Source: Tubulanus polymorphus (Eukaryota; Animalia; Nemertea). Taken from it: a stretch of 64,000 nucleotides of DNA. Position numbers and translations under genes: made by a program. Positions 4,694-60,535 of the stretch are shown one piece after another. The first letter of the stretch is position 1. The number at the start of each line of letters is the position of its first letter. Location: assembly GCF_964204645.1 (NCBI RefSeq), contig NC_134027.1, positions 18,500,560 through 18,564,559 on the forward strand. The letters run 5' to 3'. Below the pieces are notes generated by a model that was not told the DNA's origin, made no database searches, and saw nothing but the letters and a program-made list of their open reading frames with translations.

Positions 4694-5562
4694 AGTCGAT
4701 TTATTTGTATTTCTTTAGGTATTTCTATAATGTATTCAACGCTCTGTAGTATGATTGTACTGTGTTTGAAGCATATCAAATCCTGCAATTCATCATTTTG
4801 TTAAGCAACATTTTGCATGCTAATGAACAGCACTGTATTCAAACCTGTGAATTCTTGGCTAGGTATCGGTCTGGTTCTTTCTATACGTACTTGTACGGTA
4901 CAGTAATTGTAAATATTCATATCAATTTGAATTTGCTGAATTTCTAACTAAATGTTGGCCTTTTTGAATGCGAATTGTTAGTCTAAATTTTGTAGAAATT
5001 GTAGCAAACTTCACTCAGTCATTTTGTCGTTGTTCTGTCGTAAATAAATGAGCGTATTGGAGCTATGCATAATCATTGTCGTCGTTTGTTTTTGAGAATT
5101 AAGAAAACCACCTACATGGCTTTTACCAAAATTTATGTATTTTTGCTATTAAATTAAAAAACATAAACTAAACATACGGTTTCCTTTGAACAGACTTTCT
5201 TTAAATTTTAAAAAGACTCATTTTTATGTTTTTCACTAGAGCAAACTTAAACAAACCTAAAAGTTAAGTCAAGAATCTGAAAGCGTTAAAGAGTAACACG
5301 GTCCTGAATAATTCGAGGTCTCAATAGGACAGTACCAGTTGCCATCCCTTGTTCAAGTGTTCAGTACTTTGCTTTTATGGAAAGAAAATTAAAATCTTCT
5401 AACTTAACCTACAGGCACTGATGTCCCCGTGGTGGCAGATAATATATGGAAAAAATCAAATTGTCTCACAACAAAAGGTTTGGTTTTCCATGGCTTGTAT
5501 GAACCCTGATTTGATATAATCACGCCTACTGGCCTGATTTTAATCATGTGTTCCGAAATCTC

Positions 5563-41570: not shown

Positions 41571-41683
41571 TTATAACCTGAAAGTGGCCATGTTTGTTTC
41601 TGCTGTTTCGCGTAAATCCCGCTCGGAGTGGGGCCAATACGTCGAGAAATCACTGCATACTCCAGGGGCGGTTCTAGGTTGCC

Positions 41684-41946
41684 TTTAAAATTCAAATTAT
41701 TGATATCTTAGAATAAATATTTAGTTATAATATAAAATACACACGGTTACGAAAATATATTATAGTTTTAAATTACTTTTAATGTTTTGTTTTTTAATGA
41801 GCTCGACCGTTCGACCTTTGGCTTGAAAGCCCATTACCCCTATTACTGACACCAGGCGGTTTGGTCATGTTGGTAAGTTGTACCATGTTGACAGAGAAAT
41901 AGAGAGTATGCGCTAGCCATACGACTGGTCGGTGTAGGAACGTCTA
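41684..41946 (-). repeat. 263-bp inverted duplicate of 42486-42748 (host flank + TSD + first 164 bp of the Polinton TIR)
   Basis: Reverse-complement match including the junction ATTACT|GACACC; one mismatch noticed. Confidence 0.95.
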
Positions 41947-42179
41947 GACTACTTATAGCTTTACCTGAACATACCCTACTAAAATGCCTCACCTTACCAT
42001 AACCCTAACCCTTCACCTAACCCTAACCCCGCTAGACCCTAACCCTAACCCTCTGTACCCTCTTGACCCGCTCGACCTTGCCCTCTGGACCCTTAAAATG
42101 CCGTTATATTGTTTTGTATATTAGCCATGTACTATACCAAAAACTGAGAAATTCTCTATCAACATGGTACATTTTGCCA
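41871..42179. mobile_element. MITE with internal (CCCTAA)-like repeats, nested in the host repeat
   Basis: TIRs TGGTAAGTTGTACCATGTTGACAGAGAA / TTCTCTATCAACATGGTACATTTTGCCA; absent from the paralog at 20690. Confidence 0.75.
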
Positions 42180-42584
42180 TCTTAATATGCCCCAGCGCCG
42201 TAGCGCTGTCGCAAAAATGATTTCATTCAGTAGGAGTACAGGGGCGGACCCAGAGGGCAAACTTGATTGCCTTCTTAGATTTAATAGGGCATATTATTGT
42301 AATCATAAGAGAAATTGTCTGCACTTGTATCAGCGAGCCACGCAGCGGCGACGCCCAATTCCATCGGTAAACCACCACTTTGTTTTTGAAAGCATGCCAG
42401 AGGCAATCATTTTTTTCTCAGAGTTTAAAAAAAAATCATATACTTTGATAGTTGAAGGGCATTTAAAAATGTTGACTGCCTACAATAGACGTTCCTACAC
42501 CGACCAGTCGTATGGCTAGCGCATACTCTCTATTTCTCTGTCAACATGGTACAACTTACCAACATGACCAAACCGCCTGGTGTC

Positions 42585-43474
42585 AGTAATAGGGGTAATG
42601 GGCTTTCAAGCCAAAGGTCGAACGGTCGAGCTCATTAAAAAACAAAACATTAAAAGTAATTTAAAACTATAATATATTTTCATAACCGTGTGTATTTTAT
42701 ATTATAACTAAATATTTATTCTAAGATATCAATAATTTGAATTTTAAATGCATATTGTATTAAATCAATTGGTCGCTCCGCTCCGCGACCGCTCCGCTCC
42801 GCGACCAATTGATTTATTTACAATACACAAATTCATATAATCAAATATATTTTAATAATAATTATTATTCTATTATTCAACTGAAATACACACGGTTATG
42901 AAAATATATTATAGTTTTAAATTACTTTTAATATTTGTTTTTAATGAACTCGACCATTCAACCTTTAACCTGAAAGCCCATTACCCCTATTACTCTTAAA
43001 ATAATCATATAAATGAATAACATTTAAATTGACAGATTATTCAATATAAAAGTATATATTTACAACATTATTTCAATATTCATATTTGTGTGAGTTAGAT
43101 TTTTAAACATTAAAAGTGTTAGTAAAGTGTGATTGAAATAATACATGATATAAATCATTGAACTTCTAAAATCAATTTTAAAAAAAAAATTATTTAGTAT
43201 TAAAATGGAAGCAAGTAAGTACTACTGTCCAACATGTAATATCAATATAGATAAATCCCAAAAAGCAAGACACAATAAAACTAAAACACATTTAGAGAAT
43301 AAATTGAAATTAGAATATGAAGATGATATATTAGAAACTAAATTAGATGAATTAAAGAATTAAAAAGAAACATACAAATGTGATACATGTAATCAATCAT
43401 TCAGTGATAAAAGATATTATAAAGAACATTTAAAATCTAAAAGTCATATTAGAAATATGAATAATGATATTTTA
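42585..43474 (+). repeat. Left TIR (~890 bp)
   Basis: Reverse complement of 59652-60535 with a handful of substitutions and indels. Confidence 0.95.
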
Positions 43475-43559
43475 AGGAATGAAAAAGGATGACGTTAGTC
43501 GAAGAAATGGAAGAGGATTCTAAAATGTTAATCAATTTTAATAAAAATATATATTATAA

Positions 43560-44342
43560 ATGGAGGAACAATCACAAGCTATAAATATAAACAATAATGG
43601 TGTAATAAATATATGCTATAAGAAATGTAATAAGTGTGAATTGAATAAATCATTAACAGAATTTCAAAAAAATAAAACTAAAAAAGATGGCAAACAAACA
43701 TATTGCAAAAGCTGTACTACACTATACAATAACAAATTTCTTGAAAATAATCCAAATTATTCAACACAATATTATATGGATAATATTGAAAAATTCAAAG
43801 TTAGAAATAAACAATGGAGAGAAAATCACTCAGATTATATAACAGAATATATGAGAGAATGGAGGGATAATAATGGAGAATATTATAAAGCGTATCAAAA
43901 TAATTATAAGAAAGAAAGATATCAAACAGATTTTAATTACAAATTGAAAAAATGTTTAAGATCTAAAGTATCAAAATTATTCAGTAAAGAAAACCACTCA
44001 GTTACACTAGCACATTTATTGGATTGTTCAGATAAATTTTTCAAATCATGGATAATATATCAATTCGATGATAAACTGAATATAAATAATTATGGCAATT
44101 ATTTTCATATTGATCATGTGTTACCAATATCTAAATTTGACATGAATGATGAATATGATAAAAAGTTAATTTGGAATTGGAAAAACCTGAGACCTCTTGA
44201 AAAGAAGGAAAATATGATTAAACATGACAAACTAGATTTACAGTTATATTTAGAACAGTTAATAAAAGTAAAGAAATTCATTGAATTATGGAACAATAAT
44301 CCAAATAATGAACAATATGTTGAATCTTTATTGAGTGGTTAA
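43560..44342 (+). CDS. HNH endonuclease with N-terminal CxxC..CxxC zinc ribbon, 260 aa, intact
   Basis: KCNKC..EF.KN..KDG..YCKSC; HIDHVLPIS...WNWKNLRPLEKKENMIK. Confidence 0.85.
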   Translation: MEEQSQAININNNGVINICYKKCNKCELNKSLTEFQKNKTKKDGKQTYCKSCTTLYNNKFLENNPNYSTQYYMDNIEKFKVRNKQWRENHSDYITEYMREWRDNNGEYYKAYQNNYKKERYQTDFNYKLKKCLRSKVSKLFSKENHSVTLAHLLDCSDKFFKSWIIYQFDDKLNINNYGNYFHIDHVLPISKFDMNDEYDKKLIWNWKNLRPLEKKENMIKHDKLDLQLYLEQLIKVKKFIELWNNNPNNEQYVESLLSG

Positions 44343-44601
44343 AGATTAATATATCTCAAATAAAATATAATGAAAATTACATACCTTCAACTAGCCATTA
44401 TTTCTATTTTAATTTTTAATATTTTCTTTTACAATTCTTTTCAAAAGAGAATAATTTATATCACAAATAAAAAATACTAAAAAAAACAATAACTAATACT
44501 AAAATTCTTTACCTTTAACTAAGCTAGTATGAATCTAAAGAGATACTGGTATCATTTTATAATACTTATAATATTTTTCTTATTAAATTTCTCTAATATA
44601 A

Positions 44602-45204
44602 ATGTCAAAGAAATCTAATAAGAATAGTATTGATATTGAAAAAACATTAGATGATTTGGGTATAAGTGATAATAAAGATACAGTTGTAACTAATTGTGCT
44701 CAAGTTAATTGTAATATAGATTATGAATACTATTTATATTGTAAGCATCATCTAGAACTATTGATTGCCGGTGGAAAAACTAAAGAGTTTTTAAATAGAA
44801 TTATTACTTTTCAAGAATTAGATGCTATGAAACCCGATAAAGTAATAAAATATTTTAAGATTTATGAAGAGGCAAGATTGGCCCGAATAAATGATTCTAT
44901 TTCAGATGGTATTGTCAAATGTTATTCTAAGTTATGTAACCAGTTAATACCAATTGATGATGAAAATAAATTATATAGTGATTTGAAAAATGACTATTTA
45001 GTTATGACTGAATTACAAAAATGGGTTGGATATGCTTCATTTCAATTAGGATCGGTTATGACATTAATTTCTACTGGCGTCATAACATTTTCGAACATCA
45101 AACCTATGGAATATAAATCAGGTAAGAACGAAACAGATGTACTACAACCAAACAGTGAAACAGAAAATGAATCAGAACAAAAATTAACTAAAATAAATGA
45201 GTGA
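44602..45204 (+). CDS. Polinton hypothetical protein, 200 aa, hydrophobic segment near the C-terminus
   Basis: Intact ORF; TAAATG start; GYASFQLGSVMTLISTGVITF. Confidence 0.8.
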   Translation: MSKKSNKNSIDIEKTLDDLGISDNKDTVVTNCAQVNCNIDYEYYLYCKHHLELLIAGGKTKEFLNRIITFQELDAMKPDKVIKYFKIYEEARLARINDSISDGIVKCYSKLCNQLIPIDDENKLYSDLKNDYLVMTELQKWVGYASFQLGSVMTLISTGVITFSNIKPMEYKSGKNETDVLQPNSETENESEQKLTKINE

Positions 45205-45557
45205 TGGAGTTAAGAAAAAGGCTAGATCCGAGAAACAAATTAAATGGGCAAGAGAATTAGGTAAAAGATCTTCAGAATTAAAAAAAAGCTAAGAAAAAGA
45301 AATTAACTGATATAAATGAATCACCTGATATTGATTCAAATAATAATCCATCTAATTCTTCTAATGCTGGAAGTAATTATAAATTATATATTACAATTGG
45401 ATTAGTAACAGTTATTATATTATCCGGTGTAATATATAAATCAAAATTCAAATCTGATGATAAAGATGATTCCAATGACAATAAACCTATCATACCAGAA
45501 AATAAGTCAAATCATAAAGTCATTGAAACTAAATCTAAATTATTATTAATGGATTAA
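45197..45557 (+). pseudogene. Small basic membrane protein (~119 aa), +1 frameshift in an A-run at ~45280; missed by the ORF track
   Basis: MSDGVKKKARSEKQIKWARELGKRSSELKK/AKKKKLTD...YKLYITIGLVTVIILSGVIYKSK...LLLMD*; TAAATG start; fills the gap between neighbouring genes. Confidence 0.75.
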
Positions 45558-45563
45558 AAGAAG

Positions 45564-46682
45564 ATGAAAAAAGAACAATATTTAAGAGATTTATATTATA
45601 ACCCAGAAAGTGAAGTATCATATTCTAACGTTTCAGAATTATGGAATAAAATTAAATCTGATAATGAAAATGGTGCCGTACGGCACCCACACGGTGATAT
45701 AAAATATAGTGAATTGAAATCATGGTTACAAAATCAACCAACATATCAAATCCACAAGAAAATGGATAAAACTTATTTAACAAGAAAAGTTATGGTTTCA
45801 TATATTGATCAACAATGGCAAGCAGATTTAATTGACATGAAGAACTTAGAGGAATACAACAAAGGATATTTCTGGATACTGAATGTTATAGACATATTCA
45901 GTAGATACGCATGGTCAGTAGATACGCAATCAAAAATAAAACTGGTATAGAAGTAACAAATGCTTTTAAAAATATATTTGAAGAAGCTATTCCAGTTAAG
46001 ATACAATTTGATGAAGGTAAGGAATTTTATAACAAACATTTTAAAAAACTATTATCTGATAACGATGTAGATTATTTTTCAACACACTCAGATAAAAAAA
46101 GCATCTATTATAGAAAGATTTAATGAAACATTGAAAACTAGAATGTGGAAATATTTTACTGCTAATGAAACATATAAATATTTCGATGTATTAGATGATT
46201 TAGTGAAAGGTTATAATAATTCTAAACATAGTTCTATAAATATGAAACCTATACAAGCTAGAAAAGAAGATAATTCAGAAATAGTATGGAATAATTTATA
46301 TGGAGCGTTTGTTACACATGATTTCGGTGAACCTAAATTTAAAATAGGACAACACGTAAGAATATCTAAATATAGAAAAACCTTTTATAAAGGTTATACT
46401 CCAAATTTTACTGAAGAAATATTCAAGATTAAAAAGATAATATTAACTAAACCATTTGTTTATAAACTAGAAGATCTAAAAGATGAAGAAATATTAGGTT
46501 ATTTCTATGAACAAGAATTATCACTTGTACCAAATCCAGATGAAATAGAATACAAAATAGAAAAAGTATTGAAAACAAAAACTCTTAAAGGAAAAAAGTA
46601 TTCTTTGGTGAAATATAAAGGATATGATGATAAATTTAATGAATGGATTTTATCTAGTAAAATTAAAAAAATAAATGAATAA
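45564..46682 (+). pseudogene. Retroviral-like (RVE) integrase with C-terminal chromodomain; two frameshifts (~45920, ~46100)
   Basis: QQWQADLIDM, VIDIFSRYAW, IQFDEGKEF, ASIIERFN (DDE triad); YKIEKVLK..LVKYKGYDDKFNEWI. Confidence 0.95.
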
Positions 46683-47286
46683 AGATTTATTTATATTTGA
46701 ACCTCATAATATGTTAGTTACTGGAGTAACCAATTGTGGTAAAACACATTTCATATTAGATTTGTTAGAAACTATTTATAAGAATCATTTTGATAATATA
46801 ATATTATTCTGCCCCACTTATGAAATGAATAAAACATGTAATAGAGACATAGTTAAGATGAAAAAGTTTATTAAATTAGATCCTAAAACAGTAAAAGAAA
46901 ATTTAGATAATTGTATAAAAATAGCAATTGATACTTATAAAGGATCAAATACATTATTCATTGTAGATGATTGCGCAAATTTACATGATTCAAAAGTTAG
47001 AGAAAGTGAGTTATGTTATCTAGCTTTCTCTGGAAGACATTTCGGGATAACAACATGGGTTTTAAATCAAAAATATAATTCAATTGTTAAAGACTTTAGG
47101 GAGAATATAAGATTTCTAGTTTTATTGCACAATAAAGATAGAAAATCTATGCAACAATCATTGGAAGAAAATCAAATTATACCAACTGAATTACATGATG
47201 AATATATGAATAAATTAAAGAATAATAAAGGTTCAAAATTATTACTGAGACTACAATTTCCCTATGAATATAAATTTATAAAATAA
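46675..47286 (+). CDS. A32/FtsK-like genome-packaging ATPase, 203 aa, intact
   Basis: Walker A GVTNCGKT, Walker B FIVDD, SGRH motif, downstream LNQ..FREN. Confidence 0.93.
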   Translation: MNKDLFIFEPHNMLVTGVTNCGKTHFILDLLETIYKNHFDNIILFCPTYEMNKTCNRDIVKMKKFIKLDPKTVKENLDNCIKIAIDTYKGSNTLFIVDDCANLHDSKVRESELCYLAFSGRHFGITTWVLNQKYNSIVKDFRENIRFLVLLHNKDRKSMQQSLEENQIIPTELHDEYMNKLKNNKGSKLLLRLQFPYEYKFIK

Positions 47287-47310
47287 AATTTATAATTTGG
47301 AATATTATAG

Positions 47311-47678
47311 AAACTAATTTATATATCTATGTACTAGACGTACGAGTAAGAAAGTAAGATTCTTGCCAAGAAAGTAAGAATCTTGGTAAGAATTCTTACG
47401 TACGTCTAGTATATAGATATATAAATTAGTTTTATAATAATTATTCTAAATTTAAATTATGAAAATGAATAAATTATATGTTTTTTCTTAATAATAATAA
47501 AAATAGATTATATAATAACTATTTCTATACTTAGATTGATAATTTTATGTTTTTAATTTTTATGAAAACTATTATATATATATATATATATATCTATGTA
47601 CTAGACGTACGAGTAAGAAAGTAAGATTTTTTTGGATTCTTGGATTCTTGGATTCTTACTCGTACGTCTAGTATATAG
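47311..47678. terminator. Two related long hairpins between the convergent gene blocks (47311-47432, 47594-47678); putative terminators
   Basis: 34-bp and 26-bp stems, each with one G-T mismatch, sharing the core CTATGTACTAGACGTACG/CGTACGTCTAGTATATAG; function inferred from position. Confidence 0.5.
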
Positions 47679-47702
47679 TTATTTAAATTAGTTTTATAAT
47701 AA

Positions 47703-48911
47703 TTATTCTAATTTTGTTTCTAATACATTTATAAAATCATCTCTGTTTATATCTAATTCACCAAAACTCTTAGGTAGATTTATTAATTTTAATTGAGCCA
47801 TCTTAACATAATTATTAGTAGGTAAATTAGCTTTTTCTCTTAATTTTTCTAAGTATTCATCAAAATCAGCATAATCAAAATCAAAATGATGTCCAAAATT
47901 ATTTATCAGATAACTTAAATCTATTTTTCTTAAATACAATAATTTATATATTTGTTTAGGATTATCTTCTGCATAAGCTAATAATTTATCAAATAACAAC
48001 TTATAGAATATATAATATTGGTTAGTTTTAGGATTAAAATATTTGATATATTTATTTTGGTTATTTAACAATGGTATCATACTCACCATTTTATAAACAT
48101 TAATTAGATGTAACTTTGATTTATAATGAGTATTTTCATCAACAGGTTCAATTTTCTTATTACAATATTGGCACATTTTATTTCTTTCTATTTCTTCTAA
48201 TTTCTTTTCATGTTCTTCTAACTTCCTTTCATTTTCGATATGCGCTTGAGATTTTTTATGTTTAGAAAAATTACTTTTAGAAATATCTAAATCACAAATG
48301 TTACAATGTTTTTTAGAATCATCAATTTTTTCATTATCATTAGTTTCAATTGTATCAACATTATCTGTTATATTATCTATGGTATCATTTGTTTCAATTG
48401 TATTAACATTATCTATGATATTATCTATTATATTATTATCAGATATATTATTATCATTATTTTTCTTTTCTTTTTCTATATGTTTATTTGATTTCTTATG
48501 TGATGCCCAATTTCTATATGATATATATTTCTTACATACATCACAATATTTTTCATTTGTCTTTTTGGTTTTGATATCAGGTTCAATCTTATCATTATTA
48601 GATGTAGTAGGTATTACATTATTAGATGTAGAAGGTATTACATTATTAGATGTAGAAGGTATTACATTATTAGATGTAGTAGGTATTACATTATTAGATG
48701 TAGTAGGTATTACATTATTATCAATTACATTACTTAAATTATCAACAACACCACTTTTATTATTATTGATTTCTATTAGTTTAGTTTTATAAATTTTGAA
48801 AATAGGATCAAATATCAAAGCTATATTACAAGGTATTACATAATATAAACCATCATTATTTTCATGTGTATCGATGTATGGAATATGTTTATATACTTTA
48901 CCTCCTTCCAT
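47703..48911 (-). CDS. Protein with three matrin/U1-type C2H2 zinc fingers and a 5x NNVIP(T/S)TS repeat, 402 aa
   Basis: YCDVCKKY..SHKKSNKH, HCNICDLD..KHKKSQAH, MCQYCNKK..THYKSKLH; 24-bp tandem repeat at ~48595-48735. Confidence 0.85.
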   Translation of the reverse strand: MEGGKVYKHIPYIDTHENNDGLYYVIPCNIALIFDPIFKIYKTKLIEINNNKSGVVDNLSNVIDNNVIPTTSNNVIPTTSNNVIPSTSNNVIPSTSNNVIPTTSNNDKIEPDIKTKKTNEKYCDVCKKYISYRNWASHKKSNKHIEKEKKNNDNNISDNNIIDNIIDNVNTIETNDTIDNITDNVDTIETNDNEKIDDSKKHCNICDLDISKSNFSKHKKSQAHIENERKLEEHEKKLEEIERNKMCQYCNKKIEPVDENTHYKSKLHLINVYKMVSMIPLLNNQNKYIKYFNPKTNQYYIFYKLLFDKLLAYAEDNPKQIYKLLYLRKIDLSYLINNFGHHFDFDYADFDEYLEKLREKANLPTNNYVKMAQLKLINLPKSFGELDINRDDFINVLETKLE

Positions 48912-48941
48912 TTATTATATAAATTTTTATTATAGTTAAAA

Positions 48942-50189
48942 TTAATACATAACACTATTTAATTGAGAATTTACAATATATAATTGCGCGTCAGATATAA
49001 TATAAATGTGCATTTTAAAATTTTTGATTCCTTTATTCTTTGTCATGAATAATTGTATTCCATCTTTAGTGTTTTGTAATTTTTTTCCAGAACCGTGTAA
49101 TGAATTATCCTCTGTTGTTCTAAAATCTAACCATAATGCATATTTATTACCGGTATAATAATCAATTTGATTAATATTACAATTTTCAGATGATTTTACT
49201 TTTTCATTCATAAAATGTTTTCTAATTTCTGGCCATTGATCAATCATTCTCATTCCTTGACAAAATATTTTATTTGCTATTCCTTCGATAGTTATTTCTA
49301 CTTTTGTTATTTCAGGATTATAATAATTATCAACATTTATTGCGCCATTAGTATATGTTGCAATGGTAAAAAATATTAATATACCTTTAATAGATCTTCT
49401 TGGGAAGTTAATATTCTCATTAATTATTTCATCATTTGCATTAATAGTTACGGTTTTAAATTTATCAATATAATCATATAATAATGAAAATCCTTGATTG
49501 TATTTAGTTTGAATTATACTTGAAATATTTTCATCAGTTACTGTATCATATTCTAAACATATATTCGATAATTTATAACTCATATCTTTATTAACGCTAG
49601 ATATTACAATTTCATTAACAGGAGCAAATGTTATTTCGAATATAACGTCTTCTTGAATTGCGTATTTATATAAAGGTGCATTGTTATTTATCAATTCAAA
49701 GTCTAATGGAATTTTATATTTGCTTCCATATATACTTTTTATCAATTTATCTACAGCATTAGTTAATATTGCATTATGTGCTTCTGATCTTAATTCATTT
49801 TGGTTTTCTGATTGGATACCTTGAAATATCATATTATTTCTGTTTTCTTTAGTTAACCATAAATCTTTATAATGCATAAATAAATTATAATCATCTAATG
49901 AGAAAACTGTTTCTGGACCAATCTTTATTGTTAATTTTTTAATCAAATATCTTCCAACATTATCAACAACATAATTATTATTATTACCGGTTACTTTTAT
50001 ATCGGCTGATAAATAAATACTATTTGGAACATAAAAAGTATTTTGTGTTAATCGAGGAATTCTAACATATAAAGTTTCATCGGGATTAATATTAGAAGGG
50101 TTATGAGTAATTATATGATGTGATCTTTCTGCTTTGATAGCATTAGATATTCTATGATTCTTAGAAGGATTGATATAACTCCCACTCAT
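48942..50189 (-). CDS. Putative double jelly-roll major capsid protein, 415 aa, intact
   Basis: Size, beta-strand-rich pattern (LYVRIP..FYVPNSIYLSADIKV, LIKKLTIKIG, YKIPLDF, LSNICLEYD, YALWLDFRT..HGSG) and position in the structural block; fold not computed. Confidence 0.8.
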   Translation of the reverse strand: MSGSYINPSKNHRISNAIKAERSHHIITHNPSNINPDETLYVRIPRLTQNTFYVPNSIYLSADIKVTGNNNNYVVDNVGRYLIKKLTIKIGPETVFSLDDYNLFMHYKDLWLTKENRNNMIFQGIQSENQNELRSEAHNAILTNAVDKLIKSIYGSKYKIPLDFELINNNAPLYKYAIQEDVIFEITFAPVNEIVISSVNKDMSYKLSNICLEYDTVTDENISSIIQTKYNQGFSLLYDYIDKFKTVTINANDEIINENINFPRRSIKGILIFFTIATYTNGAINVDNYYNPEITKVEITIEGIANKIFCQGMRMIDQWPEIRKHFMNEKVKSSENCNINQIDYYTGNKYALWLDFRTTEDNSLHGSGKKLQNTKDGIQLFMTKNKGIKNFKMHIYIISDAQLYIVNSQLNSVMY

Positions 50190-50209
50190 TTATTTAACAA
50201 AAAAATTAA

Positions 50210-51867
50210 TTATTTATTTTTTATCATGTTTACTAACCCAAAAATAATTGCACTTACAACTGTAATTAAAAATAAAATAATATGTTCAGCAGCAAACTTA
50301 ATAATGTTTCCTGCAGATTTCAATATAAAACCAACAATTGATGCAATAAATCCTGGCAATGCACAGATTTTTTAGATAGTTCCCATAAATATTTTGCTAA
50401 TTTCTTTAAACCATCCTTAACTTTATCTTGTATAGAATTATTATCTGGGGGTTTATCTGGTTTATTTGGAGTAGGAGTAGATTTCAAAGCATTTGATATT
50501 GCTAAACCTATTGTTGTAAATAACATAGTTACAGCTGTTAGAATTGAAAGAATTGTTATTCCTTCTAACTTAAATAATAATCTTATTCTATCTTTTAGTG
50601 ATATGTCAGAATTTGTTTTTATCAACAAATCTTTAAAAACAACTTTTAATTTTTTAATATGATTAAGATCATATGATTTTAATAATGTATCTCTTTCTTT
50701 TTTCTGTAATTCTTTGTTATATTTTAAATCATCTATTTCTTTTTCTAAAGCTAACTTTCTGCTTTCATAATCAGCTTCCTCTATTACTTGAAGATTTTTA
50801 TTTAATTCTAATTGTTTTAATTCTTCATTTGCATTAGCTAATTCTTTTTCTAACATGGTTATTTTAGAAAATCTCATCTTAATATTAGCAATTTCACCAG
50901 CTGATATTTGTACCCCTTTAATTTCTCTACGTGCTTTTTCAGGAAATTGTTTTAATTCTTCATCAGTTAAATCAAGTAATCCTTTTTCTAGTAAAGATTG
51001 TATTCGATTTATTCCAGTACTATTCATCTCTTCTTCTGAATCTCTTAATCTATCAATTTGTTTTTCTAATACTAATTGTAATTGACTTGAATCATTATCA
51101 ATTGGTTGAGTGTCTCTTCTCGATGTTTCGGGTGTTGAAGATCTTAATTTATCTAATCGATCTCTATGATCTTCCATTTCTGGATCAACATCATTAGGAT
51201 TTAAATTTGGATTTTTAAATGGTGAATATTTGTTAATATCAAATTTAGGAATTGGTTCTTCTTCATCTATTCTATCGAGTGCATTCCATATAATTCTGAG
51301 AAATTCTGTGCCACCTTTTGAATGTTCAATTGAAGATCTTGCTAACATTTTAGGTTCAAAAATATTTTCTTGACCAATTCTAGATAATTGTATTGATACA
51401 GTTTTGTTATTTAATTCAACATTATAATACCATGAATCATTTTTGAATTCTAAATTATTCATGAAAAATGGGTCATCATTTATAATTTGTTTTACAATTT
51501 CTTCTGAACCAATTTCATCTATTACATCTTTTGATATTAATTCGTTAACAATTGTATATATTACTCTATTTTTCATTAATTTTAATTGAGATTTCATAAG
51601 AGGATCAGTTGTATTTACTAATCTTTTCATTAAATCCTTTCTAGATGTTGCGGTTCTAATAACTAACCTTTCGGAAGCTGTCATATATTCTTTAAATTCT
51701 TTACGCGTTTCATAATCATAATCATCATCTTCACCTAAATTAGAATTACGTCCTGGCTCATTACCATCATCAAAACTTGTTTCACTAAAATCAGGTGGTT
51801 GTTCATCAGTTATGCCAGGTTCATCTAAAGTATCCATTGGAAAATCTTCTCCACCTTTTACATCCAT
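50210..51867 (-). pseudogene. Large acidic/coiled-coil protein with C-terminal membrane segments (~552 aa); frameshift at ~50365
   Basis: ORF 50320-51867 continues in another frame as ALPGFIASIVGFILKSAGNIIKFAAEHIILFLITVVSAIIFGLVNMIKNK*; also GITILSILTAVTMLFTTIGLAI. Confidence 0.8.
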
Positions 51868-51882
51868 TTACATAACAAAAAA

Positions 51883-53208
51883 TTAAAATTTGAAATATAA
51901 TATTCGTCCGATTACAATTCCTATACAAGTTAAAGCTAATTTAGCATTTTCATGGGACTTATTATCATCATTTAGTTTAATTATATCATGTTGAATAATA
52001 TCAGTTTTTATATTTTCTGTAGTATTGTAATCTTTTATTTTAGAATCATTATTTAATTCAATATTATTAGTTTTAGTTTCAGTTGATTGAATGTGTTTTT
52101 TATTTTTTTCGCCTTCCATTAATTTTGGAGCAGTAATAATCTTTTTATTTATATCATTCAATCCAAATGAATTATTTATTGTTGCGGTTTTAATTAGATT
52201 ATTATAACCAATTATGTTTCCCATCTTTAATACTAAATCATTAAAAATAATTAATAGATTAGGGCCTATACAATAATTTAATCTAATATGTGATTTATCT
52301 AAATAATTTTGATATCTTACAATGTTCTCCGGAATCGATCTATTTTTATCATTATGAATGGAATCTTCAAATAATACTTTAAATTGTTTCTGCGCATCGA
52401 ATGAAGTGTTATCATTTCCAATTATTGGGGATCTTGTTTCAACTTGCGCACCTAAAATACATATCAGATAAGTTCTAATAGATTGATTTATTCTTTGTAT
52501 ACCAGCTTTAGTAAAACCTTCACTATTTTCTAAAATAAAATAAACCCAACCATTATTGTTTTGTTGTTGTATATTATTATAATATTTTGGTAATTCATTC
52601 CAATTTAGTGTTCTTATATCTGAATTTGTCATTATTTTTCCAAATTCTTTAGTATATAATATTCCTAATCCACCCATTGTTCCAATTTTTGCTCTAAAAT
52701 CTTTATTTGAATTAATATTAAATTCATTACATATTTTATAAAACTTAGAAAAATTAATATTATTATTCAATTCTTTAAAATATTTTGAACCTGGTAAAGG
52801 ACATTCTAATTCATGTAATATAAATTTTATTTAAAAATATGTATGAAATCTAAAAAGTGATAACATCAATGGTAAACTTGGTTTGTTTAAATGATCATTC
52901 CAACTAATTCCACAACCTGTTGTTGCACAATAAACAGCAAAATTTAATTGGTTCTGCCAATACTTCATATTAGATTTTAATAACCATTGTTTTGCCTCAT
53001 TTAAATTTTTGAAATTAATTGTATACACATGAAATATATTTTCCATCTTTACATGAAAATTATTACTTTCAGTAACATAAATATATAAATCAATTAATGA
53101 ATTTAAAACTTCATTTCTATATGTAATATCTTTATTAAAATGTATTGCTGGAATACTATATTTAATTGATTTATTATATTGGAAAGCTTTTGGAAAACTA
53201 TCTGCCAT
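51883..53208 (-). pseudogene. Polinton hypothetical protein (~441 aa) with C-terminal TM anchor; in-frame premature TAA at 52831-52833
   Basis: ORFs 52831-53208 and 51883-52770 are in the same frame and bridged by 20 open codons; ends LALTCIGIVIGRILYFKF. Confidence 0.8.
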
Positions 53209-53224
53209 TTATATAATTAAAAAA

Positions 53225-53658
53225 TTAATAATTAACTAATTCTTTTAATAATTTATCTTGTTCTTCAACTGTTATATGACCATTTAAACTTATTATATAA
53301 TCTAGTGTATTCTTCAATTTATTAATTTCTTTTATATTAGTTTTAATTTTTCTTTATTACTTTTTATATTTAATTTTGAACTTATACCAGTTAAAACACT
53401 TGAACTTAATCCTAATACACCAATTGATATAGCTAAAGGTGTTAATGGACTGAATATTGCTAGAAATGTTATTACAGAACTAATTGTAACCGAACCACTT
53501 ATAATCAAATAATATATAATTTTACTTTTTAAATATTTTTTCTTTTTTATCTTTAAGTCACTTTCAAATTCTAATATTTGTTTTTCTAAATATATTTTTA
53601 ATTTAGTTTTATTTATATCATGAGGAATAATATCAATATTATCAACTTTATCTTCCAT
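53225..53658 (-). pseudogene. Two-TM small membrane protein with coiled-coil flanks; frameshift at ~53340
   Basis: IIYYLIISGSVTISSVITFLAIFSPLTPLAISIGVLGLSSSVLTGI; continues in another frame as NIKEINKLKNTLDYIISLNGHITVEEQDKLLKELVNY*. Confidence 0.75.
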
Positions 53659-53681
53659 TTATTTAGCAAAAAAAAAAATTA

Positions 53682-54104
53682 CTAATTAGTAAATTTATAT
53701 GCTACAAATATAACAATAACTGTTCCACCTAAAATCCAAATTATTTCATATTTCTGTTGTTCTTTACTTGGGGTATAATAATCTGATAAATTAGGTTTGT
53801 ATAGATGTAATTTTTCTTTATTGGTTACCGCGTTATATAAACTCATTGCATCATCAACTGATTGAAAATCTCTATGTGAAATCTTCTGATCATATAATTC
53901 CTTGTTAATATAATCCATATAGTTTTGTCTCTTTTCTCTATATTCTTCAGCTTGTTTATTATATTTCTCTAATGCTAAGTTATGTCTTTTCTGTTCTGTT
54001 AATGATCCATTTTTATCAATATGTTTAAATAAATAACCACCACCAGTAAATGCTAAAGCGTTAACAATTGCCGATCCTATGATAGTTATAACTGCAGAAG
54101 CCAT
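53682..54104 (-). CDS. Small membrane protein, 140 aa (hydrophobic N-terminus, coiled coil, C-terminal TM)
   Basis: MASAVITIIGSAIVNALAFTGGGYLF ... IIWILGGTVIVIFVAYKF. Confidence 0.85.
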   Translation of the reverse strand: MASAVITIIGSAIVNALAFTGGGYLFKHIDKNGSLTEQKRHNLALEKYNKQAEEYREKRQNYMDYINKELYDQKISHRDFQSVDDAMSLYNAVTNKEKLHLYKPNLSDYYTPSKEQQKYEIIWILGGTVIVIFVAYKFTN

Positions 54105-54128
54105 TTATTTAGTAAAATAATTATGCAT

Positions 54129-54350
54129 TTATATGGGAGGAATATATTTTTGTTTTTCTAAATAATCAATAGTTAAATTAGATAAAGTAACTGCTAACGT
54201 TAATTTTAAAATATCATTTATATCAAATCTATCAACATTAACACTTCCCATTTTAAATACTTTTTTTAATACCATTGAATAACCAACAGTTCCAACAGAT
54301 AGTAATGCTCCATTATATAATCCAGTTATTATCCACTTATTATCACTCAT
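54129..54350 (-). CDS. Small hydrophobic protein, 73 aa
   Basis: Intact ORF; TAAATG start overlapping the upstream stop; two hydrophobic stretches. Confidence 0.8.
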   Translation of the reverse strand: MSDNKWIITGLYNGALLSVGTVGYSMVLKKVFKMGSVNVDRFDINDILKLTLAVTLSNLTIDYLEKQKYIPPI

Positions 54351-54707
54351 TTATTTATCAAAAAAATTACTATCATCAAAATATTTAGTTATCTTATTTA
54401 TGATTAATTCAACATTTATTTCATTACTAGTTTCATTTGTATATATTTCAATTATTATTTTTTTAATATCATCGATGATCAAATCTTCATCTAATTCATA
54501 AAATCTTAAAGATTCTCTAATTAAATTAGTAATCTTTTCTACATTTAAAGTTTCTTTATCTATTGTTGTTTCATACTCAAATGTTGTTTCATTAGAAAAT
54601 GTAATATTTTTGATATGTGTAATTACATCATTAATGTTAAATTTCATTTCTTTCTCATGTTTAAAATCAAACCCAAAACATATACTCGGTTCAACAGTTA
54701 TATTCAT
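54351..54707 (-). CDS. Acidic hypothetical protein, 118 aa
   Basis: Intact ORF in the gene array; TAAATG start. Confidence 0.75.
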   Translation of the reverse strand: MNITVEPSICFGFDFKHEKEMKFNINDVITHIKNITFSNETTFEYETTIDKETLNVEKITNLIRESLRFYELDEDLIIDDIKKIIIEIYTNETSNEINVELIINKITKYFDDSNFFDK

Positions 54708-54723
54708 TTATATAATGAAAAAA

Positions 54724-55481
54724 TTACTCTTTACATCTTATAACTAATTCATAAATTACAGGAAAGTTATTCAAATCAATTAAATATCCATTATGATTTC
54801 TTATTTCTGATTTAAAATTATTAAATTAAGGAATGCAAGGTTTAAAATCACATTCTGTTAAATTATAATTTATTTGAGTTCCAAATTGTTTAACATTTTT
54901 TAGCGGTAAAATATTTAGTATACTAGAACTACAAATTGTTTCTTTAGTTGCTTCGAAAGTTTTTGTAGGCTCGATTAAATTGCAATAAATATAAAAGTGT
55001 GTAAAAGGTATTATATTTGAATTACCATCTATGTTTCCTGTAACAGTATCTGGTGCAATTCCTAGCAATTTAGCTAATGGTTTTTTACCATAAATGCATG
55101 TTGACTTTCATCATACACCTTTCTTTTAATTTTATTTGTGCTATAACTTTTTATAAATCTAATTAAAAATTTATCATCTCTTCTAATTTTCAACCGTGCT
55201 ATTCGGTTAATTTCTTGAGCTAATGTTTCTAAATTATATAATCCTGGTTTTAAAATTATATGAAACCATTTATCTACATTTCCAATATGAATTAAAAAAG
55301 TATTATCTTCAATAGTTTTATCCGTTATATTAAAAAAAGAATTACATAAACTTATATTAACTAATTTTAAATCTACACAATTCTTAAATTCTCTATCTAA
55401 TTGAACTAGTAAATTATGAGATTTATAATTAGTAAGTTTTCTTGAATCAACAAATATTCTGTATTCTTTTAATTCCGCCAT
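54724..55481 (-). pseudogene. Putative minor capsid (penton, single jelly-roll) protein; frameshift near 55080-55130 and stop at 54826
   Basis: IFVDSR..NSFFNIT..LKPGLYN..LAKLLGI..FYIYCNLI..ILNILPL..IRNHNGYLIDLNNFPVIYELVI, a typical PLV/virophage penton pattern. Confidence 0.75.
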
Positions 55482-55498
55482 TTATTTTACATATTTTC

Positions 55499-55852
55499 TT
55501 ATTCGAAATCTATTTCATGGTGCCCCTTTTCATTCTTACCTTTGTATACGAAATAGAAATCACCAGAACATAATTCTTCTAGATCTTGACTTGATAATCT
55601 ATGAAATCTATCCGGTAAATATGTTCTGAATTTATATGTATTTCCTTTTAATCCTTCATATTCTAAGTGTATAACTAATTTATCTCCATATTTGTTAGTA
55701 ACTCTATCAATATTTGTAATTAGATATTTCTTATGGATTATTAATTCTTTTAACTTCTTAAATTTATAATCTACTGATTTGACATTTGAAGTATCTTTTA
55801 TTCTATCTAGAAATAATTTGTTGTTCTCACTGTGTGCTTGTTTACTCTCCAT
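55499..55852 (-). CDS. Small protein downstream of pPolB, possibly an OB-fold ssDNA-binding protein, 117 aa
   Basis: KKLKEL..KYLI..V.NKYGDKLVIHL..FRTYLPDRF beta pattern and acidic tail; function inferred. Confidence 0.55.
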   Translation of the reverse strand: MESKQAHSENNKLFLDRIKDTSNVKSVDYKFKKLKELIIHKKYLITNIDRVTNKYGDKLVIHLEYEGLKGNTYKFRTYLPDRFHRLSSQDLEELCSGDFYFVYKGKNEKGHHEIDFE

Positions 55853-55881
55853 TTTAATAACATATTTTTATTAAAATTTGA

Positions 55882-58800
55882 TTAACACGTTAGGTTTCTT
55901 TTCATTATCTCGTTCTCTTTTGTTTCTTCTCTTTTAAATTTTAAGTATTCATCTAAATTACAACCATAAGCAACTGTATGAATTCCATCATCTAAAATAT
56001 ATCTTTTATCATCAAATGGGTTTAGACTTATCTTTTCAATTTCTTCAATAAACATTTCATGATCTTCAGATCTTAAACATCTCATCTTATGTTTTCTAAC
56101 TTCTTCATTGAATATACAATTGATGTAATCTTTGAAATGAATATTCTTTTCTACTACACTTTTAGTTATTCCTTTTAACTTTTTAGCTTCATGTTCTTTA
56201 GTTTTATATGAATACATTTTAGATCTAATACCGATGAATTCAATCATTTCTTCACCACCTAATTCATCTTTGAATTTACCGGGAACTTTTTTATTATCAT
56301 TGCTAAACAATTCATGATCTTTAGGATAATTACTGAAATCAAAATGATGTTTTAATGTTTTTAAATCATCAGTTATGTTATCAGTTTTTATCTTTAATAT
56401 GTAACTGTCAGTATCAAAATATAATATTTCTATATGTTTTTCTCCAAAAAGTGGTTGTAATACATTATAATAGAATTCATACATTAGTAATTTTGATAAT
56501 TCTAAAACTGAAGCGCCAACATAGATTGGTTTATTAAATTTCATTGATGTTCTTCACATTTTAACTGCAGCTAAATTTTCATCAAATATTCTGTTACCAA
56601 TGAACTTAGGATATGTTTGTAAATGTCTAATTCTTTTACCATTACTAACTAACTCAATATCATTTCTATTTCTAATATTTTCACAAGTCTTACCATAGAA
56701 TGCATTATTCATTAACTTAAAGAAATCTTTTTCGAAATCAGTTTTAGCTTCAGTTCACTGTTTGGTGTTAAAATCTATATATTTTTCTAACCACTTAGAT
56801 TGGCTGAATGAAATATATCTATGTACTTTTTTTAGAATCATTCCTTGATTCAAATAAAACTTTAACATTCTATAATGTACTACATAATTATATTTATCTT
56901 CTTGAGTTACCATTAACTTTTCTGTATGAATATGATTTTCGGGTTTAATTCTCTTTTGGTAATTTGATAATTCTTCATGTGTTACAGTTTTATGTTCGGG
57001 GCAGTATACTAGATTTCTAGATTTAAATTTTTTATCTTCAGGATATTCTAAATCTACAACAAAGAAGTAACCAGTATCTGAATCATCTGCAATATCTAGA
57101 ATTCTTTTCTTCCAATCAAATTTATCATTATTTTCATTCTGTAAAACTTCAGTTAATTCAAATACTCCATAAGGTTGTGGTTCCATCATTGCCCAACCAT
57201 ACAAATTATTTGCATCTATATATAATAACTTATATCCAGGGTTATCATTTACATTGAAATATCTATCACCTAATACACCTGAAACTCCTCCTCTTATAGA
57301 TTTTTCAAATAATAGTAATTGATCTATATTTGTTAACAAATCCATTTTTATATCTGTAAATTTTAATCCACAATCCCATGTTAAACCTGGTGATGAATAA
57401 CAATGACAAGGATCAATGTTAAAATATTCTAGGTTTACATCTCTAAACCTTTCGAATATATCGGTTAATAATAATACATCTGATTTTAGATATGAATCTA
57501 CTAATTGTCCATGATTTTTCATTCCAAAATGATTCCAAATATTCAATGTTCTATTATATACTTCATCTTTAACATATTCATTTTTTAATTCATGATAGAA
57601 TTGTTCTTTCAATAATTCAGTTATATTGAAATCATTATGTGATTTATAAAATGAATATGGAATTGCTCCTTTATATCTCATTAATTGAAAATCATCATTA
57701 TTTGGGTAGTGTTGCTTTAATATTCTTAATTCATCATCAACTAATGATTTTGATAAGTTATCTAATGAACTATTTAAAAATCTATATGAATCTATAAATC
57801 TTAGGCAACCAAATTGGAATGATATATAATTCTCAGATGTTTTAGCTAACATTCTAAATTTATAAGTTGGTATTTTATCTTTTGATCTATTTGAATTTAA
57901 TCTTTCTATTTCGTTATTAATTTCTTCTATTTTATGACATAACTGTTTGATGAATAAATGTGCATCATATCCTGATAGATTATGAAATATAACTGGTACA
58001 AAGTTAATTTTCTTAGCTTGCAAGTTACAATTCTCATGTGCGGCGCCTCTAAACTTTCCATTCAAATGATCATGGTCTCTTACTTTTCTATCTCTAAAAT
58101 TAAATATCTTTTCACAATAATAACATTTATCTGCAAACTCAAATGCTTCTTTATCTTTTTCTGTCATTATAATTTCTATATTCTTATTTAACTTTTCATT
58201 AAATCTTATTTCATATTCAATTAATAAGTCACAAAAATGATTGATAATATTTTCATTTCTATAATGATAATATTCACTTTTAATTAGTTCTGGATAATCA
58301 GATTTAATATATAACCCGAAAGCTGCAGCTGATTGATGAATCTTTTTAATAGTATTTGTTATTGGTGGTTCTTCTGAAAAATAATTTTCATTAGAATTTA
58401 ATTTCTTTCTTTTATAATATATTTCTTTTCTATCTTGATCAGTTAATTCTTTATTTAATGATTCAAAATCTCCATACATTACAAATGGTACTTTATTTTG
58501 TAATCATATTTTTTGAATTCTAATATTTTATCCTTTTCATTTGGTAAAACTAATTTACAATAATCATGATTTTCACATAATTGTTTATGATTCAGTAATT
58601 TACTTTCATTACTAATTCTATGTAAACATTTTCTACAAAGATATATTTTATGGTGATCACTTTCTGATTTAAAAAATAAATCGATTTGTTTAATCCACAT
58701 ATAATGATTCTCATAATATAGTATATCTATTACATCGTTTGAATCATAATCTTTTGATAGATATAAAGGTTCTAATGTATAATGTTTTATATTGTTACCT

Positions 58801-59921
58801 TTTGTATTTGGTAATTTGATTAAATCAAATACATTTATCTTTATATTATTATCTCTTTCTATTTTTGGGATGTTTTTAATTATTACAGGATACTTATCTA
58901 TCTTATAATTATTTTCAAATTGTTTATAATGAGTTAATCTAAAACTATGTTGTTTATAATCTTCAACTGGGTGTAAACAACTTATTATAGCCCATAGAAA
59001 ACATTTATCATCTTCATTTTGTACATTTATTACAGCATTAGTTTTAAATGGTAGTTTAATATAACTCGATGCTTCAATATCTGGTTCTTTATAATATGAT
59101 ACATTATTTTCATCAATTGGTTTTGATTTAGTTAACTTATTATATTTTGTGTTATAAACATGTAAAGTCATAAATATTATTTCATCAAATATTAAACCAG
59201 ATCCTTCAAAATATTTCTCGTCTATTTTAGTTTTTACTTCATTATAACATTTATCTAATTTATCATCTATATGTTGTTTTGAAATAATATGTTGTGAATG
59301 AGAATTTATATTATATATTGGTTTATCTTCAGATTTTATAAACTTTACTTTAGAAGATATACTTATTTTAGGATATTCAACATCTGTAATTATTTTTATT
59401 ATTTCTTTCATATTTTCTAAATGTTTTTTATTTTCTTCTAATGTTTTTCCTTTATGAAATTTAAACTCAATAGCTGCTGGGCCAATATCACTTTTAAATG
59501 CTTCGGTTATCTCTATATCTTTTTTATTATCCAATGAATTAATATATTATCTTACATCTTCCATGTATGGTCTTTTATTGTTTAATTTATTTTCTATGCT
59601 TTTAATTGTCTTCTGTTTCTTATCATTATCTTTATCAAAATAATCTTCACCTAAAATATCATTATTCATATTTCTAATATGACTTTTAGATTTTAAATGT
59701 TCTTTATAATATCTTTTATCACTGAATGATTGATTACATGTATCACATTTGTATGTTTCTTTTTCATTCTTTAATTCATCTAATTTAGTTTCTAATATAT
59801 CATCTTCATATTCTAATTTCAATTTATTCTCTAAATGTGTTTTAGTTTTATTGTGTCTTGCTTTTTGGGATTTATCTATATTGATATTACATGTTGGACA
59901 GTAGTACTTACTTGCTTCCAG
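55882..59921 (-). pseudogene. polB: Protein-primed family B DNA polymerase (N-terminal zinc fingers, OTU-like protease region, exonuclease with EndoVII insertion, polymerase); start mutated, 3 stops, 1 frameshift
   Basis: NVQNEDDKCFLWAI..ENHY; VPFVMYGDFES; CYYC..VRDHDHLNGKFRGAAHENCNL; FHNLSGYD; LYIDANNLYGWAM; KLMNNAFYGK; YFDTDS; stops at 59547, 56755 and 56554, frameshift at ~58492. Confidence 0.97.
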
Positions 59922-60535
59922 TTTAATACTAAATTTTTTTTTAAATTGATTTTAGAAGTTCAATGATTTATATATGTATTATTTCAATCACACTTTACTA
60001 ACACTTTTAATGTTTAAAAATCTAACTCACACAAATATGAATATTGAAATAATGTTGTAAATATATACTTTTATATTGAATAATCTGTCAATTTAAATGT
60101 TATTCATTTATATGATTATTTTAAGAGTAATAGGGGTAATGGGCTTTCAGGTTAAAGGTTGAATGGTCGAGTTCATTAAAAACAAATATTAAAAGTAATT
60201 TAAAACTATAATATATTTTCATAACCGTGTGTATTTCAGTTGAATAATAGAATAATTATTATTATTAAAATATATTTGATTATATGAATTTGTGTATTGT
60301 AAATAAATCAATTGGTCGCGGAGCGGAGCGGTCGCGGAGCGGAGCGACCAATTGATTTAATACAATATGCATTTAAAATTCAAATTATTGATATCTTAGA
60401 ATAAATATTTAGTTATAATATAAAATACACACGGTTATGAAAATATATTATAGTTTTAAATTACTTTTAATGTTTTGTTTTTTAATGAGCTCGACCGTTC
60501 GACCTTTGGCTTGAAAGCCCATAACCCCTATTACT
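59652..60535 (-). repeat. Right TIR (~884 bp)
   Basis: Reverse complement of 42585-43474. Confidence 0.95.

What the first reader, a model, noticed from the sequence alone, without database searches (positions are those of the whole stretch)
43525..55885. Second shared upstream motif marks the DNA-metabolism genes, suggesting a temporal promoter class
Seen: HNH has TGTTAATCAATTTTAATAAAAATATATATTATAAATGG. The 55852 gene has TGTTAATCAAATTTTAATAAAAATATGTTATTAAAATGG. pPolB (left TIR copy) has AAATCAATTTTAAAAAAAAAAATTATTTAGTATTAAAATGG. The first two are nearly identical although 12 kb apart on opposite strands. All three have an A-rich core where structural genes have a T-run. Inference: this resembles the poxvirus intermediate (A-rich core + TAAA) versus late split, which would give replication-first, capsid-later expression.
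Basis: partly seen in the sequence, partly recalled or inferred. Interest (0 to 1): 0.7.

Follow-up and report, generated by a model that had tools for sequence, protein, structure and literature searches.

The report
Two start signals in a Polinton
In a decayed virus-like transposon (Polinton), the DNA-copying genes sit behind an A-rich start signal and most virion-module genes behind a T-rich one; the A-rich signal recurs in two relatives, and the pair likely times gene expression and resembles poxvirus promoters, but no RNA data or helper virus confirms this.

Summary
The motif is real. In this decayed Polinton (42585-60535), a strict A-core + TAAA(A)TG pattern occurs only before pPolB (both TIR copies), HNH and gene 55852: 4 hits against 0.15 expected, though the pattern was drawn post hoc. 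It matches 4 of 6 upstream regions of the same genes in two relatives. Gene 55852 is predicted to be an OB-fold SSB (best PDB match PRD1 P12, weak), so 'DNA metabolism' holds for the trio.

Three corrections:
(1) The HNH/55852 near-identity is likely partly shared descent: both follow a pPolB-tail-like TGT-TAA, and HNH follows pPolB in both relatives.
(2) Looser A-cores also front a zinc-finger gene, the likely penton, the ATPase and 45197, while integrase has neither signal.
(3) In vaccinia, replication genes are early, not intermediate.

The T-run class fits vaccinia late geometry in 7 of 7 sites; the A class fits intermediate only partly. Timing and reader are untested. A replication-gene promoter class is published for Gezel-14T, and this scan noted a two-class code in another genome (e1-7769700). 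Verdict: new variant, moderate interest.

The parts
42585..60535 (.). Polinton/Maverick element, decayed copy; AG...CT ends; 6-bp target-site duplication GGTGTC at 42579-42584 and 60536-60541
   Evidence: sequence; pPolB, rve, A32 ATPase and capsid Pfam hits
42585..43474 (+). Left terminal inverted repeat (partner 59652-60535); carries the pPolB upstream region and the first ~270 nt of pPolB
   Evidence: (I1, I2)
43177..43207 (+). A-core class site, left TIR copy of the pPolB upstream region
59919..59945 (-). A-core class site, right TIR copy, in front of the broken pPolB frame
43507..43531 (+). pPolB-tail-like relic (one frame reads RILKC-stop; pPolB ends read RILAC, RILSC and RNLTC-stop)
43537..43562 (+). 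A-core class site before HNH
43560..44342 (+). HNH / endonuclease VII-like gene, 260 aa; 41-52% identical to the HNH that directly follows pPolB in L001 and L002
   Evidence: PHROG 1035 E=1e-15
55850..55887 (-). pPolB Cys-stop plus A-core class site before gene 55852
55499..55852 (-). Predicted OB-fold single-stranded DNA-binding protein, 117 aa
   Evidence: model pLDDT 78; top PDB row PRD1 P12 E=0.011; viral SSB E=2e-4; OB folds Z 4-6; Phi29_Phage_SSB lead 0.84 for homologue P0001
55882..59921 (-). pPolB with endonuclease VII insert, broken into several frames in this copy
48909..48941 (-). Looser A-core site before the zinc-finger gene 47703-48911 (ranks 2 of 15 in likeness to the relatives' replication-gene upstreams)
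55479..55501 (-). Looser A-core site before gene 55481 (likely minor capsid/penton by recalled signature; only a DUF5901 lead in calls)
46655..46677 (+). Weak A-core site before the packaging ATPase, encoded in the integrase tail; a similar one lies before 45197
50187..54725 (-). Seven T-run + TAAATG sites (starting at 54725, 54368, 54122, 53680, 53226, 51884, 50207) before MCP and six neighbouring genes: the contrasting class
47311..47688 (.). Two related strong hairpins (47311-47432, 47584-47688) just after the stops of the two convergent gene arms; candidate terminators
   Evidence: z -14.8 and -9.3

Best explanation
This Polinton carries two classes of gene-start signal that share a TAAA(T) element at the ATG and differ 9-14 bases upstream (A-run before pPolB, the predicted SSB and HNH; T-run before MCP and its neighbours); they are likely promoters of an earlier and a later class, likely read by the RNA polymerase of a large DNA helper virus with poxvirus-like promoter grammar. 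Shown: the two sequence classes, the genes behind them, and recurrence of the A class in two relatives. Inferred: that they are promoters; that transcription starts in TAAA; that a parasite entering a helper's factory after the helper's DNA replication would use the intermediate-type class as its earliest, making polymerase, SSB and a zinc-finger protein before capsid; and that a helper exists. HNH likely acquired its signal by sitting in, and moving with, the spacer behind pPolB, so it is not an independent vote.
For: Strict pattern: 4 hits in the element vs mean 0.15 (max 2) in 500 shuffles, 0 in 42.6 kb of host flank, 3 of 3 replication genes in L001 and 1 of 3 in L002. In L001 the three sites lie in three different spacers (order SSB-pPolB-HNH), and within-element likeness (33.8) is about equal to between-element likeness (32.2, 32.8), so recent copying does not explain the class. 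Scored only by likeness to the relatives' six upstreams, the window trio ranks 9 of 455 possible trios. TAAA fronts 15 of 16 genes, against 69 of 756 ATGs overall. Vaccinia late features (T at the 10th base upstream; T-rich core 5-7 bp before TAAAT; PMC11980589 and PMC5294985 passages) are met by 7 of 7 T-class sites. Nine of nine replication-gene sites lack that T when the right TIR copy is used, 8 of 9 with the left. A- and T-runs are depleted inside the ORFs, so runs at starts are not background. AATAAA (101 vs 110 expected) and GTAAG (13 vs 13) are not avoided in ORFs, which is compatible with non-nuclear transcription. No RNA polymerase or TBP family hit among the 20 ORFs scanned. Precedent: virophages share helper promoters.
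Against: The strict pattern was written after seeing all three elements. A rigid weight matrix trained on the relatives ranked HNH 1, ZnF 2, 55481 3, MCP 4, pPolB 5 and 15, SSB 10 of 17. Loose A-cores front the ATPase, the likely penton, ZnF and 45197 (3 of 4 vs 4 of 12, P=0.19); integrase has neither class. L002's SSB has a T-class-like site. The conserved A block spans about -10 to -22, whereas the vaccinia intermediate core is -26 to -13 with a 12-bp spacer and no consensus. Vaccinia replication genes are early. Only two relatives were obtained, pPolB 79% identical to each other, and neither contig reaches structural genes, so conservation of the T class is untested. The central hairpins look more like mimivirus/Sputnik 3' signals than anything poxviral. 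No helper was identified.
Confidence: 0.4

Rival explanations
1. The two classes are real promoters but are read in the host nucleus by host RNA polymerase II, possibly with an element-encoded activator (the A-class zinc-finger protein is a candidate) switching on the T class.
For: The element integrates (TSD, rve integrase) and is high-copy in the host (depth about 500-900 over most bins from 12% of run X6). ZnF 48911 carries an A-class-like site. Earlier scan notes describe Polintons with host-type promoters or their own TBP (unchecked).
Against: The conserved block abuts the ATG, leaving no room for the usual TATA-to-start distance plus a leader (established knowledge). Poly(A) and splice-donor words are not avoided in ORFs. 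No TBP hit.
Confidence: 0.25
2. The A-rich sites are copies of one spacer spread by rearrangement of the replication module; differences from the T class reflect ancestry or strength, not timing.
For: HNH follows the pPolB stop in 2 of 2 relatives. The 25 nt ending at 43531 rank 3, 4 and 26 of 1800 TAA-ending 25-mers against the three pPolB ends. At two positions of the pPolB tail (55894-55895), 369 and 364 of 373 reads carry letters other than this copy's, and these agree with the stretch before HNH. The left arm is rearranged among family copies (joint 43316-44236; 714 reads with other sequence before 43475).
Against: This explains the HNH/SSB pair, but not the pPolB and SSB sites of L001, which lie in other spacers. 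No excess of within-element likeness. In the 462 reads that diverge after 43538 the tool still reports an A-run and a TAAATG-type start, so the shape survives turnover of the letters.
Confidence: 0.2
3. The A-core is a host polyadenylation signal of the upstream gene, or an A-rich translation leader.
For: AATAAA lies 9 nt after the pPolB stop and ATTAAA in the L001 pPolB-HNH spacer; AATAAA or ATTAAA lies within -9 to +60 of the stop in 12 of 15 genes checked.
Against: The motif also stands where no gene lies upstream (L001 SSB, TIR copies). AATAAA occurs 101 times inside ORFs, as expected by chance. It keeps a fixed distance to the next ATG, not to the previous stop.
Confidence: 0.1

Closest known systems
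Vaccinia intermediate and late promoters (PMC11980589, PMC12917281, PMC5294985; passages read)
   Same: TAAA/TAAAT at the start codon; T-run 6-7 nt upstream and T at the 10th base in one class, no such T and an A-rich block in the other.
   Different: The A block sits about 3 nt closer than the vaccinia core and has a consensus. Vaccinia intermediate genes are not replication genes. The element encodes no detected RNA polymerase or transcription factors.
Gezel-14T/PgVV (bioRxiv 10.1101/2022.07.28.501842; passages read)
   Same: A Polinton-like element with a helper-type motif before its DNA polymerase, recombinase and a homing endonuclease, i.e. a replication-gene promoter class.
   Different: The motif there is mimiviral early AAAATTGA, no late motif was found, the host is an alga and the helper is isolated. 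Here it is a pPolB+rve Polinton with two classes and no known helper.
Mavirus/EMALEs and Sputnik (PMC8547959, PMC6723459; passages read)
   Same: Integrated pPolB+integrase element whose genes share an upstream motif; hairpin 3' signals in Sputnik.
   Different: One late motif (TCTA or mimivirus late) in protist hosts; no replication-versus-capsid split reported in the passages seen.
Entomopoxvirus-associated PLVs (PMC11296320; listing and word search only)
   Same: Shows that poxviruses can have Polinton-like hyperparasites.
   Different: Its text has 0 occurrences of promoter, motif, transcription or upstream; kinship to this element was not tested.
Iridovirus IIV-6 delayed-early AAAAT motif (PMC5294985 section 6, read whole)
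   Same: An essential AAAAT at -19 to -15 of the transcript start of the DNA polymerase gene; AAAAT ends the A-run in most sites here.
   Different: A five-letter word in 77% AT DNA is weak evidence; no TAAATG/T-run pairing is described there.
PRD1 P12 / phi29-type SSBs (PDB 9gfq; PMC11886824 seen as listing and abstract start)
   Same: Small OB-fold protein beside a protein-primed polymerase.
   Different: 12% identity, TM 0.35, E=0.011; DNA binding untested.

Membership tests
Polinton/Maverick | TIRs with AG...CT ends and 6-bp TSD (feature recalled) | tested here: met
Polinton/Maverick | pPolB and rve integrase | tested here: met
   PF03175 E=1e-9; rve E=0.004 plus chromodomain; both genes broken
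Polinton/Maverick | Packaging ATPase and double jelly-roll MCP | tested here: met
   Pox_A32 E=5e-12; Capsid_N only E=0.007; 577 MCP homologues; MCP fold not modelled
Polinton/Maverick | Minor capsid (penton) | tested here: inconclusive
   55481 by recalled signature; DUF5901 lead; single-sequence model pLDDT 38; no longer homologues
Polinton/Maverick | Adenain-like protease | tested here: inconclusive
   no Pfam hit and no match to two simple motifs in six frames; several ORFs unassigned
Poxvirus late promoter | TAAAT(G) at the start codon | tested here: met
   7 of 7 T-class sites
Poxvirus late promoter | T at 10th base upstream within a T-run 5-7 bp from TAAAT | tested here: met
   7 of 7 (definitions)
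Poxvirus intermediate promoter | TAAA initiator and no T at the 10th base | tested here: met
   9 of 9 replication-gene sites with the right TIR copy, 8 of 9 with the left
Poxvirus intermediate promoter | AT-rich core at -26 to -13 with 12-bp spacer | tested here: inconclusive
   conserved block about -10 to -22; positions 15-19 upstream are 43 of 45 AT vs 30 of 35 in the T class, in 77% AT DNA
Poxvirus intermediate/late promoter | Initiation in TAAA by viral RNA polymerase after DNA replication, with stage-specific factors | not testable with these tools
   needs 5' end mapping and infection time course
Virophage (helper-dependent) | Promoter shared with an identified helper virus; replication depends on it | not testable with these tools
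   no helper at hand
PRD1 P12/phi29-type SSB | OB fold | tested here: met
   (Z 4-6 only; fold class, not family)
PRD1 P12/phi29-type SSB | Cooperative ssDNA binding | not testable with these tools
   bench assay

The most novel reading that the evidence does not exclude
A high-copy, integrase-bearing Polinton of an animal is an endogenous virophage of a poxvirus-like giant virus and has copied its helper's whole post-replicative cascade: intermediate-type promoters for polymerase, SSB and a regulator, late-type promoters for the virion. Upstream motifs could then predict which Polintons depend on which helper.
Probability: 0.25. Interest if true: 0.8.

Novelty: new variant of a known kind. 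Interest (0 to 1): 0.5.

Why it matters
Whether animal-type Polintons transcribe autonomously in the nucleus or lean on a large DNA virus is open. A gene-by-gene two-class signal with poxvirus-like geometry makes this testable with short reporters and 5' end mapping. The work also assigns a predicted SSB to a widespread unannotated small protein family (120 cluster representatives; nearest Atlas clusters mostly arthropod), which links Polinton replication to PRD1/phi29-type protein-primed replication. Helper-shared promoters in virophages and a replication-gene class in Gezel-14T are already published, which limits the surprise.

Tried and rejected
- Poxvirus early terminator TTTTTNT: it looked depleted in ORFs (11 vs 24), but controls showed general avoidance of homopolymer runs, stronger for A-runs. 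Rejected.
- Concerted evolution of the motif within elements: not seen.
- RNA structure at the two motifs: none (z 0.65 and -0.02).
- Relatives in viral contigs: none with MCP, SSB, MCP alignment or pPolB alignment; the deep SSB alignment gave no usable pattern.
- A strict A-class pattern in viral contigs gave 0 matches, which says little about helpers.
- Genome contigs gave two fragments under 800 bp at 37-40% identity, with no pPolB in those assemblies; not used.
- No whole genome is held. No RNA holder listed.
- Penton identity of 55481 was not confirmed by homologue search, PDB, NCBIfam or folding; no paper holds 'DUF5901'.
- Pfam and PDB sequence searches with the SSB alignment gave nothing significant.
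- Literature searches for a TAAATG or two-class promoter in Polintons/adintoviruses listed no such paper. The library lacks most subscription journals, I read only passages, and no supplements were opened (bioRxiv supplements are closed), so motif figures there could bear on novelty.
Full report
Setting. The finding lies in an AT-rich island (21-28% GC against about 36% in the flanks). It is a Polinton/Maverick at 42585-60535 with ~890-bp TIRs, AG...CT ends and a 6-bp target duplication. It encodes pPolB with an endonuclease VII insert, rve integrase with chromodomain, an A32 ATPase and an MCP. pPolB, integrase and several other genes are broken in this copy. The family is high-copy in public DNA of organism A. 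The host is likely an invertebrate animal (nearest Atlas clusters arthropod and mollusc), but this is not established.

Observation. Two of the three quoted strings match verbatim and the third has one A too many. HNH vs 55852 is the best of 120 upstream pairs, and 0 of 1000 shuffled sets reach its score. TAAA fronts 15 of 16 genes, against 69 of 756 ATGs overall. At 9-14 nt upstream of it, the trio is A-rich and seven genes from 54707 to MCP are T-rich.

Are the genes DNA-metabolism genes? pPolB is. The HNH gene hits PHROG 1035 at E=1e-15. For 55852 I collected homologues and folded an 89-row alignment (pLDDT 78). No PDB match passed E 0.001, but the top row is PRD1 SSB P12 (E=0.011, TM 0.35) and most listed rows are SSBs. 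A staphylococcal phage SSB matches at E=2e-4, VIA returns OB folds at Z 4-6, and the Atlas gives Phi29_Phage_SSB as a lead for a homologue (0.84, 44% of members). It is a predicted SSB, and in both relatives it abuts pPolB.

Relatives. One metagenome scan confirmed 2 loci among 590 candidate stretches. Both read SSB-pPolB-HNH. A strict pattern (TTTA, two A/T, four or more A, 5-13 nt, TAAA(A)TG) was written after seeing these. It hits 4 places in the window element (both TIRs, HNH, SSB; 0.15 expected), 3 of 3 genes in L001 and 1 of 3 in L002, and nothing in 42.6 kb of flank. L002's HNH has the A-run without the TTT; L002's SSB has a T-class-like site, a counter-example. Scored only by likeness to the six relatives' upstreams, the window trio ranks 9 of 455 trios; single ranks are HNH 1, ZnF 2, SSB 3, 55481 4, 44602 5, pPolB 6 of 15. 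A rigid matrix did worse: MCP 4, pPolB 5 and 15, SSB 10 of 17. Neither contig reaches structural genes, so conservation of the T class is untested.

Why HNH and SSB look identical. The relatives' polymerases end RILAC-stop and RILSC-stop, followed directly by HNH; the stretch before the window's HNH reads RILKC-stop in one frame. Those 25 nt rank 3, 4 and 26 of 1800 TAA-ending 25-mers against the three pPolB ends. Likely HNH moved to the left arm with the post-pPolB spacer, and SSB took the slot behind pPolB. Reads add that this copy is a minority: most differ at 43527 (625 of 790) and 43532 (574 of 761), 462 diverge after 43538 into another HNH-slot variant that keeps an A-run and a TAAATG-type start, and depth falls from about 1000 to about 20 inside this HNH's 5' part. 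The near-identity is therefore weak evidence, while the retained shape supports function.

How exclusive is the class? The strict form is confined to the trio (3 of 4 DNA-metabolism genes vs 0 of 12 others, P=0.007, post hoc). The loose A-core also fronts the zinc-finger gene 48911, gene 55481 (penton by recalled signature, unconfirmed), the ATPase and 45197 (3 of 4 vs 4 of 12, P=0.19), and integrase has neither class. Gene 44602 is intermediate between the two.

Comparison with poxviruses. By passages of PMC11980589 and PMC5294985, late promoters have TAAAT(G), a T at the 10th base upstream, and a T-rich core 5-7 bp away; 7 of 7 T-class sites fit. Intermediate promoters have TAAA and lack that T; 9 of 9 replication-gene sites fit (8 of 9 with the left TIR copy). 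The vaccinia core lies at -26 to -13 with a 12-bp spacer and has no consensus (PMC12917281 passages); the block here is about -10 to -22, so the fit is partial. Vaccinia replication genes are early, and its intermediate genes are DNA-binding, packaging and core proteins. The analogy works only for a parasite to which the intermediate machinery is the first available; this is inference. The ORFs avoid neither AATAAA nor GTAAG. An apparent avoidance of TTTTTNT was generic homopolymer avoidance. Two strong hairpins close the convergent arms, closer to the mimivirus/Sputnik hairpin signal (PMC6723459 passages), so the helper, if any, need not be a poxvirus. The iridovirus AAAAT motif is another weak match.

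Known cases. Gezel-14T carries its helper's early motif before TVpol, Yrec and a homing endonuclease (passages). Mavirus, EMALEs and Sputnik carry late motifs (passages). Entomopoxvirus-associated PLVs exist, but that paper's text has no promoter analysis by word search. PMC8502044 and the Halocafeteria preprint were seen as passages only. Six searches listed no paper on a TAAATG-type or two-class code in Polintons. This scan's notes include a two-class code in a PLV of another genome (e1-7769700, unchecked) and no look-alike of this element.

Verdict. A recurrent A-core signal at the replication module, distinct from a T-run class, is likely real (about 0.8). That it encodes timing is about even. 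That a pox-like helper reads it is 0.25 to 0.4. New variant of a known kind; interest 0.5.

Noticed in passing
window 47311-47432 and 47584-47688: Two related near-perfect hairpins (z -14.8 and -9.3) 15-25 nt after the stops of the convergent ATPase and zinc-finger genes; candidate bidirectional terminators like the mimivirus hairpin signal.
   Followed up: partly
window 42586-42993 (and right TIR): The TIR is internally palindromic: arms 42586-42641/42938-42993 and 42639-42697/42884-42942 around a GC-rich 16-nt direct repeat at 42774-42805. L001 1-460 has a similar nested inverted-repeat layout before its SSB.
   Followed up: no
window 41680-41946 and 42486-42752: A 267-bp inverted duplication spanning the left junction (host flank, TSD and first ~167 bp of the TIR) lies 640 bp outside the element.
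   Followed up: partly
window 43316-44236: Many family copies join 43316 to 44236, skipping most of the HNH gene (147 reads in X6); 714 reads have other sequence before 43475. The left arm and TIR length vary among copies.
   Followed up: partly
window 45186-45204, 46664-46682, 54351-54368: Start signals are written into the tails of upstream genes: 44602 and integrase both end KINE-stop, and 54707 ends NFFDK-stop, encoding the T-run site of 54350.
   Followed up: partly
window 42585-60535: No adenain-like protease gene was recognised, although most adintoviruses carry one; several ORFs (44602, 54707, 51867, 53658, 54104, 54350) are unassigned.
   Followed up: partly
window 48569-48744: 24-bp tandem repeat (NNVIPTTS units) inside the zinc-finger gene; read depth over 47332-48539 is about 40 against about 600 elsewhere, so this part is a minority variant or poorly mapped.
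   Followed up: no
P0049 cluster: MCP homologues at 54% identity are filed under several Bartonella isolates on 0.5-1.6 kb contigs, probably host or vector DNA in those assemblies.
   Followed up: no
window 37905-39402; 1148-9000; ~42000-42060: Host flank holds 43- and 50-bp tandem arrays in inverted arrangement, a 4108-bp tandem duplication, and TAACCC-type repeats.
   Followed up: no
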